DNA from: the human T2T-CHM13v2.0 reference genome, Homo sapiens
DNA: 64,000 nt
Reading direction: 5' to 3' (one strand)
NCBI RefSeq assembly: GCF_009914755.1
Contig: NC_060947.1
The first letter of the stretch is position 1; each line of letters starts with the position of its first letter. The notes beneath the pieces are model-generated. The model was not told the origin of the DNA. It saw only the letters and a list, made by a program, of their open reading frames with translations, and made no database searches. The position numbers and the translations under genes were made by a program. This document shows, in pieces, positions 40,035-42,306 of the stretch.

Positions 40035-41070
40035 GGCGCCAGTTCAGGCACCCTGGCCTATGGGGAGACGGTCGAGCCCAACCAAGCCCAGCCAAGCAGG
40101 CCACGGGACAGGAACAACAAGGCCTTCAGGACACCGTGGCCCTCACGGCAGGTGGAAGTACCGTGTTCCCGACAGCGGGTGGCTTCCGCGCGCCTTCGAC
40201 ACCCGTGTCGAGCCTTCTCATTGGTCCCCCCTCCACCAACCAGCGCCCCCTTTGTTGGGTGAAGCCTCTGGGCTTTAACCAATAGGGACACAGGCTCTTG
40301 GTTTGTCCCGCTGCCCGTCATTTGACTGGGTGGATGCACTCTGGTCGGGTCTTGGGGCCAGGGTGCACTGGAGCTCTCGATCCACTTCTTTCTTTCTGTC
40401 TTGCTCCCTCTGGCCGGGCACCTACTTTTTAATGATAGCTCCTCTGTGTGCCAGGTGCTTCTCGTGCATCAGGACATTTATTCTCCCAAGCTGATGAGCT
40501 GGGGGCAGCTCTCCCCTTGACTTCCGCCTTACAATGGGACACTGGGGCTCAGAGACGTGGCTGTCATTGGAAAGTAGGTGCCTGGCCAGAGGCAGCAGGA
40601 CAGGAAGAAAGAGGTGGATGGAGAGCTCCAGTGGGCCCTGGCCCCAAGACCTGACCCAAGTACAACCACCCAGCCAAACCACGGGCGTCCGGGCAATCCA
40701 AGAGTCTGCCTCCCAATTGGGTAAAGCCCAGAAGCCGCGCCCAACAAGGGGCACGCTGATTGGCGATGGGCAGACCAATGAGAAGGCGTGGAACAATGAG
40801 AAGGCAGGACGCAGGCATTGAGGGAGCCCGGAAGCCACGCGCTGTCAGTGACATCTCGTGAGCAGACTGTGGTGAGGGTGGCGGTGTCCCAAAGGCCTTG
40901 CTGTTCCTGTGGCCCCAGAGCACCACCCTTCCCTGCTGTATCAATTCGCTCTCAGGCTCAAAGCTGAGAGTGGCCCCCTCGGCTGGGCTTGGCTGGGCTC
41001 GGCTCTCCTCTCCCACTGTTACCAGGACGACTGTCTCCCCACAGCCTGGCTGTCTAGACTGGCGGGCGCC
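40035..41070. promoter_or_regulatory. Bidirectional CpG-rich promoter region between the two ATGs, with multiple CCAAT boxes
   Basis: ATTGG 40220-40224, CCAAT 40279-40283, CCAATTGG 40713-40720, ATTGG 40759-40763, CCAAT 40775-40779; many CpGs from ~39.7 to 41.5 kb; no obvious TATA box. Confidence 0.7.
40910..40967 (-). repeat. 58-bp antisense copy of exon-1 coding sequence inserted upstream of the + gene ATG
   Basis: 55/58 identical to the reverse complement of 41264-41321 and to the direct sequence 39802-39859; absent at the equivalent position in the left arm. Confidence 0.9.
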
Positions 41071-42306
41071 ATGAGCTCCACGGATGAAGTGTCCGTTTGC
41101 AGGGCTGGTTTAGGCCCAGAGGGTGGCGAGCAGGCCGGCGCCCACACCGCCAGCCCGGGAGCCCCACGGGGTGACGGCCACGGCCGAGACCTCAATTTTG
41201 GGGGGCAGCGCAGTGGCAAGGGTAAGGGCAAGGGCGAGAGCGGGTTCACAGATCCCGAGAGCTTCAGCTTCGAGTCTGAGAGCGAATTGATAGAGCAGGG
41301 AAGGGTGGTGCTCTGGGGCCAGGAAGGCCGGCCTGGCACCCCGGTCGACGACCAAGCGGGTGGTGGGGACTACTCTTTCTACCTGGCTGATGAGCCAGCC
41401 ACCATCATGCCGCCGTCCAGCGTCCAGGGACACCCGTCCCCAGAAGGCGCCACTGCCAAAGGGTCCACTGACATCTGGGCGGACCTGGAGGTCGGTCCCA
41501 GTTGGAGAGGTGCGCTGAGCCCCAGCCCTGGAGAATGGCAGCAGGCCTCTGCCGGCCCTCTCCACCTCAGTGTTCCTGGGCCAGGACCGGCCTGGGAGAA
41601 CCCAGAAAGGGGCTCGAAGAGCAGATTGAGCTTCCAAGTGGATCCCCAGCAGCCCTCCGCGGAAGGCCCCGCCGGGCTGAATACTGACGACTCTGATTCC
41701 GCAGATGAGAGCAGCGACTTACCGGTGATTAGGGTGATCATTAGCACCAAAGAAGGAAGCCAGGCCAAGCCCGGAAGCCCCAAGAAGCCAGGAGACACTT
41801 GCGGACGCCGCAGTTTCCACCGCAGGGAGAGTTACCTTCAGGTTCAGGGACCTCTCCTGATCTCTCCTCCCCGCAGACTCACCCCAGTCGTGGAGAGGCC
41901 AGCTGTGGGAGAGCTGGACGTGCCTTCCTTGAAGAAAATGCAGAGCATGGTGTGGGGAAAGAGGGGGGTCAGGCCCAGCTGCTCAGGAGCTGCCGTTAGA
42001 GGGCCCCTACCCCGGGGCACTCTGGGAAGGAAGGTGGCCCAGGAGAAGAAATCCCTAGAGGGTGCACCAGAACTGGCCCTGCGGGGAGCCTTTCCTGCCT
42101 GGGGGCAGAGACTTTCAGCAGTTCCACCTGATCCGGCTAGCTTCCCGCCAGTGTCTGGCGTGGGGCTCCTGGGGAAGTCCGTGAGACCCAAGGAGCCCAA
42201 GCACAGCAGCCCTGGGAAGAAACCTGCAGGAAGGAAGACCAGGGAGTCCCAGGCTGCGGCCAGAGAAGATAATGACCCAAATAGAGATGAGGTCCCAAGG
42301 GCCCAA
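41071..42306 (+). CDS. CXorf49-like gene (+), coding exon 1 (412 codons)
   Basis: ATG at 41071, open frame to ...EVPRAQ, donor CAA|gtgagt at 42307. Confidence 0.9.

What the first reader, a model, noticed from the sequence alone, without database searches (positions are those of the whole stretch)
40909..41321. Self-antisense 58-bp insert upstream of the ATG: a built-in RNA stem that would loop out the start codon of the intact CXorf49-like gene
Seen: 40910-40967 is a 55/58 reverse-complement match to coding sequence 41264-41321 ([18 protein letters not shown], a motif that is identical in both paralogs). It is absent from the equivalent site in the left arm, where the flanks ...gttcctgt / gtggcc... 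are separated by only 3 bp. It is bracketed by an 8-bp direct repeat GTGGCCCC (40909-40916, 40970-40977), typical of microhomology-mediated template switching. One of the three differences would be a G-U wobble. Inference: the proximal CCAAT box is at 40775, so the insert probably lies in the 5' UTR. The mRNA could then fold into a ~58-bp duplex enclosing a ~300-nt loop that contains the ATG (41071), giving cis translational repression, an ADAR/Dicer substrate, or a trans-acting antisense segment against sibling CXorf49-family mRNAs, including the - strand copy.
Basis: partly seen in the sequence, partly recalled or inferred. Interest (0 to 1): 0.85.

Follow-up and report, generated by a model that had tools for sequence, protein, structure and literature searches.

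The report
Inverted coding-sequence copy in 5' UTR
One human CXorf49-like gene carries, in its annotated 5' leader, a backwards copy of 58 bases of its own coding sequence, most likely a DNA-copying accident that lets the mRNA fold into a very stable stem around its start codon, with no evidence yet that this is used for anything.

Summary
40910-40967 is 55/58 complementary to coding 41264-41321, with 296 nt between them, and about 6e-22 such matches are expected by chance. The own-genome search found at least 7 CXorf49-family copies. Only this one has the segment: the other 6 of 6 have 3 nt where this copy has 59. All three mismatches are changes on the insert side. In a tree the carrier is a terminal branch.

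The best reading is one templated, inverted insertion of the template-switch kind, a known way to create hairpins. It is younger than the paralog split.

By the RefSeq table supplied with the finding, the transcript starts at 40813 and exon 1 is unspliced, so both arms lie in the mRNA. Folding predicts a -118 kcal/mol duplex. It is present in the MFE and the centroid, and 53 of 58 positions have pairing probability above 0.9. It encloses the ATG.

Translational repression is physically plausible but untested. Nothing shows selection, editing, small RNAs or action in trans. The transcription start is the weak link: CXorf49B's annotated start lies downstream of the equivalent site. Verdict: a new member of a known kind, of moderate to low interest.

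The parts
40910..40967 (+). 5' arm: inverted copy of the coding motif, unique in the genome in this orientation and context. It lies in the annotated 5' UTR, at mRNA nt 98-155 counted from the annotated start 40813.
   Evidence: 55/58 complementary; the only forward match to query 98-155 is the segment itself; gap in 6 of 6 other copies.
40911..40969 (+). The stretch between the conserved flanks CTGT and GTGGCCC. It is 59 nt here against 3 nt (CGC, or CCC in the left arm) in the other six copies. It includes 2 nt (GA, 40968-40969) not explained by the donor.
   Evidence: Alignments A1 and A2.
41264..41321 (+). 3' arm and nearer candidate donor: coding sequence of exon 1 (about residues 65-84, ...[18 protein letters not shown]...). 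It is one of the two most conserved 58-nt stretches of exon 1 among four diverged copies.
   Evidence: 55/58 invariant at 41262-41319; 53/58 at 41264-41321; background 0.65.
40968..41263 (+). 296-nt loop enclosed by the predicted stem. It contains the annotated start codon 41071-41073.
   Evidence: supplied annotation.
40909..40916 (+). First copy of the 8-nt direct repeat GTGGCCCC. Its last 7 nt are also the start of the inverted copy.
40970..40977 (+). Second copy of GTGGCCCC. This is the ancestral flank, present as GTGGCCC in all seven copies.
40893..40909 (+). Upstream flank that already resembles the reverse complement of the donor's flank (shared GGCCTT and TTCCTG). In the MFE it extends the helix outward with bulges.
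   Evidence: sequence display. The similarity was judged by eye, post hoc.
39802..39859 (+). Left-arm copy of the motif. On the + strand it reads in the same orientation as the insert, so it is the alternative donor (direct copy, 1108 nt upstream).
   Evidence: (95% match on the + strand).
40104..40108 (-). Empty site in the left arm (LOC100129291): CTGT CCC GTGG.
40775..40779 (+). CCAAT box. The motif GACCAATGAGAAGGC is conserved in the family and tandemly duplicated here (40773-40787 and 40791-40805).
   Evidence: (family D7).

Best explanation
The segment is a mutational scar. A single templated insertion copied 58 nt of the family's conserved exon-1 motif in inverted orientation into the leader of LOC101059915. 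[quoted passage not shown] The event happened on the terminal branch of this paralog, well after it split from the other copies.

Because the annotated transcript starts 97 nt upstream and exon 1 is unspliced, the mRNA carries both arms. It is predicted to form a 58-bp stem of about -118 kcal/mol that encloses the start codon in a 296-nt loop. The expected consequence (inferred, not shown) is a strong block to 5'-to-3' scanning for transcripts that start upstream of 40910. That would make this a translational handicap of a weakly constrained paralog rather than an evolved regulator.

Shown: the repeat, its uniqueness, its derived state, the microhomology and the predicted fold. Inferred: the mechanism of origin, presence in the mature mRNA, formation in vivo and the effect on translation.
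For: Repeat and significance.

Insertion specific to one of at least 7 copies. The six others have CTGT-CGC/CCC-GTGGCCC.

Not a transposon: the only genomic matches to the segment are the CXorf49-family motifs.

Derived state:
- All 3 mismatching positions keep the family base on the source side in all 7 copies.
- The carrier is a terminal branch sister to the 70.306-Mb copy (support 91/93), with the left arm next (91/90). The midpoint root lies elsewhere.
- With the carrier-branch synonymous divergence of about 0.18 (derived), 10.6 changes are expected in 58 nt if the repeat predated the split. Three are seen, P(<=3) = 0.007.

Donor within this palindrome: 55 WC matches to either arm of the window's palindrome against 51-53 to the other copies.

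Microhomology.

Known mechanism: template switching creates perfect stems in one event. Löytynoja & Goldman 2017, PMC5453318, passages. Mönttinen & Löytynoja 2022, PMC8794818, passages, largest pattern up to 59 bp. 2023 miRNA paper, PMC10710096, passages.

RNA:
- The stem is in the MFE and the centroid of 40813-41400, z = -7.3 with 0 of 100 shuffles as stable.
- Duplex energy is -118.1 kcal/mol.
- In the whole 1494-nt exon 1, 53 of 58 positions pair with P > 0.9.
- Folding energy is -289.5 kcal/mol, against -224 +/- 4 with the 5' arm shuffled (20 shuffles) and -201.5 without the 59 nt. The paralog equivalents fold at -0.44 to -0.49 kcal/mol per nt against -0.56 here.

Weak constraint: dN/dS is 0.57-0.73 for exon 1.
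Against: - No orthologues could be examined, so the date, and insertion versus ancestral presence with loss, rest on paralogs. Rooting on the carrier's own branch cannot be formally excluded.
- The junctions are not explained cleanly by one switch-and-return. CGC is replaced, GA (40968-40969) is unexplained, and the best microhomology alignments leave a 2-nt (TG) or 5-nt discrepancy (my reading).
- The 296-nt jump is longer than the short-range events the four-point model was built for.
- The transcription start is known only from the supplied table. The near-identical CXorf49 and CXorf49B have annotated 5' ends 36 nt upstream and 23 nt downstream of the equivalent site (table plus coordinates), so a share of transcripts may lack the 5' arm.
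- Splice-site-like motifs flank the segment: GTGAGG at 40872 and a pyrimidine tract plus CAG ending at 41044. They were read by eye against a recalled consensus and not scored, and no annotated transcript uses them.
- The 412-codon exon-1 frame is still open after long divergence. This suggests the protein matters and sits uneasily with a crippling leader.
- Thermodynamic prediction ignores helicases, ribosomes and editing. One paper read here (PMC3141257, passages) stresses that moderate (-30 kcal/mol) hairpins do not impede scanning.
Confidence: 0.65

Rival explanations
1. The stem is a selected cis-regulator: a translational brake on LOC101059915 released by start-site choice or by a germ-cell helicase. 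On this reading the insert was fixed because it is useful.
For: The stem is far more stable than any leader structure known to be scanned through (thresholds recalled from Kozak's work, and -30 kcal/mol is tolerated per PMC3141257). The open reading frame is intact. Divergence between the arms is low, 3/58. Annotated 5' ends in the family fall on both sides of the site, so start choice could include or exclude the 5' arm.
Against: Only one of at least 7 copies has it. All 3 changes are one-sided, 2 of 3 break pairs, and none is compensated. The low divergence is explained equally well by youth. The gene is weakly constrained. No expression, structure-probing or translation data were available.
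Confidence: 0.1
2. The duplex works through dsRNA pathways. It could be edited by ADARs, activate PKR locally as the IFNG 5' element does, or yield small RNAs or an antisense segment that acts on sibling CXorf49-family mRNAs.
For: The duplex has uninterrupted runs of 28 and 17 WC pairs, or 28 and 21 counting the wobble. PKR activation needs 33 bp or more and monomer binding 16-18 bp (PMC10816128, passages). The 5' arm is complementary to every family member: 53 WC of 58 for CXorf49 and CXorf49B with longest perfect run 22, and 51-55 overall. The donor is one of the two most conserved stretches of exon 1. X-linked, testis-expressed amplified families are silenced by hairpin RNAs in Drosophila simulans (PMC10292708 and PMC10317233, abstract starts only).
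Against: The partner in cis, 296 nt away, should out-compete any partner in trans. A 58-bp internal stem with a 296-nt loop does not look like a Drosha substrate, given the roughly 35-bp stem and small apical loop described in PMC10710096. Poor processing of long dsRNA by mammalian somatic Dicer is recalled knowledge. There was no Rfam match in 39500-42500 except a chance-level hit, E 0.18, below gathering score. No editing or small-RNA data could be consulted. The 16 papers mentioning CXorf49 and the 2 mentioning LOC101059915 gave nothing on this, by listing.
Confidence: 0.07
3. The segment is a DNA-level scar only. Real transcripts start downstream of it or splice it out, so the stem never forms in the mature mRNA.
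For: CXorf49B's annotated 5' end lies 23 nt downstream of the equivalent site (supplied table). Candidate splice donor (40872) and acceptor (41044) motifs bracket the segment (by eye).
Against: Three of four annotated family 5' ends are upstream of the site: 97 nt for LOC101059915, 62 nt for LOC100129291 and 36 nt for CXorf49. All five annotated transcripts of this gene share the unspliced exon 1 from 40813 to 42306 (supplied table). The conserved CCAAT box at 40775 is 135 nt upstream of the insert, and CCAAT boxes usually sit about 60-100 nt upstream of starts (recalled).
Confidence: 0.2
4. The inverted repeat is ancestral to the family and was deleted in the lineage or lineages leading to the other six copies.
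For: The carrier has the longest branch (0.15). Eight-nt direct repeats flank the segment, and slippage between them could delete it.
Against: A deletion between the two GTGGCCCC copies would leave CCT-GTGGCCCC, not the CTGT-CGC-GTGGCCC seen in five copies. The tree places the carrier inside the family next to two copies that lack the segment, so at least two losses, or a root on the carrier's own branch, would be needed. Divergence between the arms is too low for that age unless pairing is under selection (P about 0.007).
Confidence: 0.04

Closest known systems
Template-switch mutations (four-point model; Löytynoja & Goldman 2017, PMC5453318; Mönttinen & Löytynoja 2022, PMC8794818, and 2023, PMC10710096)
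   Same: A stretch is replaced by the reverse complement of nearby sequence in one event. The donor is kept. The event creates a near-perfect stem from sequence without one. Reported sizes reach tens of bases, up to 59 bp.
   Different: The donor lies 296 nt away (or 1108 nt if the left arm was used), so the result is a long-range stem and not a compact hairpin. The model was framed for short-range events. The junctions here need a small extra change. The context is a protein-coding mRNA leader pairing with its own coding sequence, not an rRNA or miRNA locus.
Microhomology-mediated replicative rearrangement (FoSTeS/MMBIR, serial replication slippage)
   Same: Templated insertion with a few bases of homology at the junctions and a couple of unexplained bases, in a palindromic, duplication-rich region. 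These mechanisms are named's passage. The description of their signatures is recalled.
   Different: Those terms are usually applied to kilobase-to-megabase rearrangements. This is 59 nt.
Stable leader hairpins that block scanning (Kozak-type experiments)
   Same: A stem far beyond the stabilities reported to stop the scanning 40S subunit (about -50 to -60 kcal/mol, recalled). It sits 97 nt from the annotated cap, so the subunit can load but must then unwind the stem.
   Different: Those are compact synthetic hairpins upstream of the AUG. Here the 3' strand is inside the coding region and the AUG is in the loop. Nothing was measured.
IFNG mRNA 5'-terminal PKR-activating element (PMC10816128)
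   Same: [quoted passage not shown]
   Different: IFNG uses a compact 203-nt pseudoknot that is very sensitive to point mutations. This is a plain long duplex, and no PKR data exist for it.
Hairpin-RNA suppressors of X-linked testis gene families in Drosophila simulans (Nmy/Tmy against Dox; PMC10292708)
   Same: An inverted copy of a family member's sequence, in an X-linked, testis-expressed, duplicated family (abstract starts; the family's testis expression is from PMC8327919).
   Different: Those are dedicated non-coding loci with stems of hundreds of base pairs processed by an insect RNAi pathway. This is 58 bp inside an mRNA, in a mammal.

Membership tests
Template-switch mutation (four-point model) | The derived segment is the reverse complement of nearby sequence | tested here: met
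   55/58, 296 nt away.
Template-switch mutation (four-point model) | The ancestral or reference state lacks the segment | tested here: inconclusive
   Absent from 6 of 6 paralogous copies, and the tree places the carrier as a terminal branch. However, no orthologous outgroup could be examined.
Template-switch mutation (four-point model) | The donor is retained unchanged (copy, not move) | tested here: met
   The source is intact and carries the family-consensus base at all 3 differing positions.
Template-switch mutation (four-point model) | One switch-and-return explains the whole difference | tested here: inconclusive
   58 of 59 new nt are explained. GA at 40968-40969 (the G can only wobble-pair) and the loss of CGC are not. 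The microhomology alignments leave a 2- or 5-nt discrepancy.
Template-switch mutation (four-point model) | Short-range event | tested here: inconclusive
   The jump is 296 nt (or 1108 nt). The model's authors excluded long-range switches without giving a limit in the passages read.
Scanning-blocking leader structure | The stem lies in the transcribed leader between cap and AUG | not testable with these tools
   True by the supplied RefSeq table (start 40813). There are no transcript-end data. Family 5' ends scatter from -97 to +23 around the site.
Scanning-blocking leader structure | Stability beyond about -50 kcal/mol | tested here: met
   -118.1 kcal/mol duplex. Present in the MFE and the centroid, and P > 0.9 at 53/58 positions. 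The threshold is recalled.
Scanning-blocking leader structure | Lowers protein output per mRNA | not testable with these tools
   Needs reporters or ribosome profiling.
miRNA precursor | Stem of about 35 bp with a small apical loop | tested here: not met
   The loop is 296 nt. The criterion is from PMC10710096.
ADAR/PKR dsRNA substrate | Double helix of about 30 bp or more | tested here: met
   58 positions with 2 mismatches and 1 wobble. The longest perfect run is 28 bp.
ADAR/PKR dsRNA substrate | Observed editing or kinase activation | not testable with these tools
   No RNA-seq or biochemical data were available.
Any curated RNA family (Rfam 15) | Match at the gathering score | tested here: not met
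   The only hit was H19_3 at 42272-42393, 23.7 bits against a gathering score of 46, E 0.18.

The most novel reading that the evidence does not exclude
The insert turned the leader of one X-linked, testis-expressed CXorf49 paralog into a pan-family antisense and dsRNA module. It copies exactly the most conserved 58 nt shared by all family mRNAs. Depending on start-site choice, the transcript is then either self-silenced in cis or supplies dsRNA (edited, or diced into small RNAs) that damps the sibling genes. This would be a mammalian counterpart of the hairpin-RNA suppressors of X-linked testis gene families in Drosophila, born in a single template-switch event.
Probability: 0.04. Interest if true: 0.75.

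Novelty: new member of a known kind. Interest (0 to 1): 0.35.

Why it matters
If the annotated start is right, this is a clean natural example of a long-range, nearly perfect 58-bp RNA duplex created in one mutational step inside a human mRNA, with six paralogs that lack it as built-in controls.

It gives a concrete test case for three questions: how far the scanning machinery and germ-cell helicases can cope with extreme leader structure, whether such a duplex is edited, and how template-switch events feed raw structure into transcripts.

It also bears on annotation. LOC101059915 is called the intact, protein-coding member of its palindrome, yet it may be poorly translatable. The 5' arm is unique in the genome, so it is a mappable tag in a family that is otherwise hard to tell apart.

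The gene family itself is uncharacterised, so the biological stakes are modest.

Tried and rejected
- Chance match: rejected (about 6e-22 expected).
- Transposon or dispersed repeat: rejected. The only genomic matches are the CXorf49-family motif copies (whose counts are lower bounds by the tool's own statement).
- Known RNA family: none.
- miRNA-like hairpin: rejected on geometry (296-nt loop).
- Telling the two candidate donors apart: failed. The right-arm source and the left-arm copy are identical over the 58 nt and over the flank on the TGGCCCC side. They differ by one base just beyond the other end, where the insert no longer matches either.
- Reconstructing exact switch points: no alignment of target, donor and product explains every base.
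- Literature on the locus: 16 papers mention CXorf49 and 2 mention LOC101059915. By listing, none concerns its leader, editing or translation. Only PMC8327919 was opened, as passages.
- Orthologues from other primates, population variation, CAGE, RNA-seq and small-RNA data: no tool here holds them.
- Splice-site scoring of the candidate 40872/41044 pair: not done, as no scoring model was available.
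Full report
**1. The observation**

The window sequence and the repeat finder (pair I2) show arms 40910-40967 and 41264-41321. 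They are 58 nt long, 95% complementary, with 296 nt between them.

A position-by-position check gives 55 Watson-Crick positions and three exceptions:
- 40938 G opposite G 41293;
- 40956 G opposite U 41275, a wobble;
- 40960 A opposite C 41271. The donor reads CG here, so this is the typical CpG-to-CpA change.

Complementarity stops at both ends. With the local composition, about 6e-22 such matches are expected in 40000-42500.

- the 8-nt direct repeat GTGGCCCC (40909-40916 and 40970-40977);
- the CCAAT at 40775-40779;
- the ATG at 41071 inside the loop;
- the peptide ...[18 protein letters not shown]....

Across the whole window, 39 inverted pairs of 40 nt or more lie within 1.5 kb. Of the 25 longest, 3 are the arms of the local palindrome and 21 sit in repeat-rich clusters. 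This pair is the remaining one, with the highest complementarity listed.

**2. Only this copy has the segment**

A search of the window's own genome with 40813-41330 found the family motif at seven places on the same chromosome:
- the right arm here (LOC101059915);
- the left arm here (LOC100129291);
- two head-to-head pairs at about 70.151/70.152 and 70.196/70.197 Mb, which are CXorf49 and CXorf49B with a truncated partner each;
- one copy at 70.3068 Mb.

The tool says its counts are lower bounds. Query positions 98-155 (the insert) matched in forward orientation only themselves. Everywhere else they matched only the opposite strand of the coding motif.

In the alignment of all seven (A2), the six other copies read CTGT-CGC-GTGGCCC (CCC in the left arm) where this copy has 59 nt between CTGT and GTGGCCC. 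The segment is therefore not a dispersed repeat, and its absence is not a peculiarity of the left arm.

**3. Polarity and age**

At the three mismatching positions, the source side carries the base found in all seven copies, so the changes are on the insert side.

A maximum-likelihood tree of five distinct copies (the two P8 pairs are represented once each) places the carrier as a terminal branch of length 0.15. It is sister to the 70.306-Mb copy (support 91/93), with the left arm next (91/90). The midpoint root lies elsewhere. One gain on the carrier's branch is the simplest history.

Exon-1 synonymous distances are 0.25-0.29 from the carrier to CXorf49 and the left arm, and 0.18 between those two. 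That puts about 0.18 on the carrier's branch. A repeat as old as that branch should have collected about 10.6 changes in 58 nt. Three are seen, P(<=3) = 0.007.

So either the insert arose in roughly the last third of that branch, or pairing has been protected. Taking primate neutral rates from memory, 3/58 suggests tens of millions of years, with very wide error. I could not look at any other primate.

**4. How it arose**

The product is the reverse complement of sequence 296 nt downstream. The target site and the reverse complement of the donor's edge share TGGCCCC, and just upstream they share TTCCTG and GGCCTT. This is the signature of a template switch with microhomology.

The literature read here supports the mechanism:
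- The four-point model describes exactly this replacement of a stretch by a reverse-complement copy (PMC5453318, passages).
- The same group showed that such events create stems in one step in rRNA and miRNA loci, with patterns up to 59 bp (PMC8794818 and PMC10710096, passages).

Two caveats apply:
- No single switch-and-return explains every base. CGC is lost, GA at 40968-40969 is unexplained, and the best microhomology alignments leave 2 or 5 nt over.
- Because the locus is a palindrome, the left arm's + strand (39802-39859) carries the same 58 nt in the same orientation as the insert. A backward jump of 1108 nt on the same template would give the same product.

The insert matches both arms of this palindrome better (55 WC) than the other copies (51-53), so the donor was local.

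**5. What it does to the RNA**

By the RefSeq table supplied with the finding, the selected transcript starts at 40813, and all five transcripts share the unspliced exon 40813-42306. The 5' arm is then mRNA nt 98-155, and both arms are exonic.

Folding results:
- For 40813-41400, the stem is in both the minimum-energy and the centroid structures. The z-score is -7.3, and 0 of 100 shuffles are as stable.
- The two arms alone pair at -118.1 kcal/mol.
- In the whole 1494-nt exon, 53 of 58 positions have pairing probability above 0.9.

Controls:
- Shuffling the 5' arm raises the energy of the 518-nt stretch from -289.5 to -224 +/- 4 (20 shuffles).
- Removing the 59 nt gives -201.5.
- The homologous stretches of the six other copies fold at -0.44 to -0.49 kcal/mol per nt, against -0.56 here.

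The prediction is robust as thermodynamics. A stem of this stability, 97 nt from the cap, should stop scanning. The thresholds of about -50 to -60 kcal/mol are recalled from Kozak's work. A paper read here confirms that -30 kcal/mol is tolerated (PMC3141257, passages). Nothing here measures this.

**6. Weak points of the RNA reading**

The start site is taken from one model. In the family, annotated 5' ends lie as follows relative to the site (table coordinates combined):
- LOC101059915: 97 nt upstream;
- LOC100129291: 62 nt upstream;
- CXorf49: 36 nt upstream;
- CXorf49B: 23 nt downstream.

CXorf49 and CXorf49B aligned alike, so the scatter probably reflects incomplete cDNAs or dispersed starts.

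Splice-site-like motifs bracket the segment: GTGAGG from 40872, and a pyrimidine tract with CAG ending at 41044. They were read by eye against a recalled consensus, and no annotated transcript uses them.

**7. Function**

There is no evidence of selection for the stem. All three changes are one-sided, two break pairs, and none is compensated. With three events this has little power either way.

The gene is weakly constrained (dN/dS 0.57-0.73 for exon 1). Even so, it keeps a 412-codon open exon 1 matching DUF4641 over residues 85-412 (E 1e-129).

The donor is one of the two most conserved 58-nt stretches of exon 1 among four diverged copies (55/58 invariant at 41262-41319, against a background of 0.65). 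The 5' arm is therefore antisense to every family mRNA, with 51-55 WC pairs of 58. However, the partner in cis should win, and the geometry fits neither a miRNA precursor nor a long hairpin-RNA locus.

The duplex exceeds the 33 bp quoted for PKR activation only if single mismatches are tolerated, since the longest perfect run is 28 bp. Editing by ADARs is plausible if the stem forms in the nucleus (recalled knowledge). It was not testable.

**8. Context**

The window's gene pair is an old palindrome. Its arms are about 34956-40040 and 41065-46268, at 82-87% identity, and the promoter region is itself inverted (40212-40439 against 40560-40787).

Jackson et al. 2021 (PMC8327919, passages) describe CXorf49 as an uncharacterised testis-expressed family in X palindrome P8. 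They do not discuss this locus.

**9. Verdict**

The feature is real, far beyond chance, specific to one paralog, and best explained as a template-switch insertion. That makes it a new member of a known kind.

Its striking predicted consequence, a duplex of about -118 kcal/mol around the start codon, is inference that depends on an annotated start site. No evidence points to an evolved function. Interest is moderate to low (0.35). It would rise sharply if testis data showed editing, small RNAs or start-site-dependent translation.

Noticed in passing
window 38780-40040 (- strand): The left-arm copy, annotated as a transcribed pseudogene (LOC100129291), still has an open frame of 454 codons from the homologous ATG. 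Its exon-1 dN/dS against CXorf49 is 0.56.
   Followed up: partly
L004 (G000:C23:70305313-70308661), - strand: A seventh family copy at about 70.3068 Mb has AGG in place of the start ATG and only a 72-codon open stretch. In the tree it is the closest relative of the window's right arm, closer than the right arm's own palindrome partner.
   Followed up: partly
L002 and L003 (partners of CXorf49B and CXorf49): Each of CXorf49 and CXorf49B has a head-to-head partner copy whose frame from the homologous ATG is open for only 127 codons. Similarity to exon 1 ends after about 488 nt. The head-to-head layout therefore recurs at all three loci.
   Followed up: no
window 40773-40805: The family's conserved CCAAT-box motif (GACCAATGAGAAGGC) is tandemly duplicated 18 nt apart in the right arm only. 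The second copy is degraded to GAACAATGAG.
   Followed up: no
window 41028-41044: The best-conserved block of the 5' leader across all seven copies (CGAC.GTCTC.CC..AG) looks like a pyrimidine tract plus AG. Together with GTGAGG at 40872 it could define a small leader intron. Alternatively it may be a conserved regulatory site. Not scored.
   Followed up: no
window 41209-41226: The right arm has an extra 6-18 nt of a GGCAAGGG-type repeat relative to the other copies, encoding the KGKGKG run.
   Followed up: no
window 34956-46268: The gene pair forms an old, diverged palindrome with arms of about 5.1-5.2 kb at 82-87% identity. The shared promoter region is itself an inverted repeat (40212-40439 against 40560-40787, 82%).
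   Followed up: partly
window 42272-42393: Weak Rfam hit to H19 conserved region 3: 23.7 bits against a gathering score of 46, E 0.18. Taken as chance.
   Followed up: no
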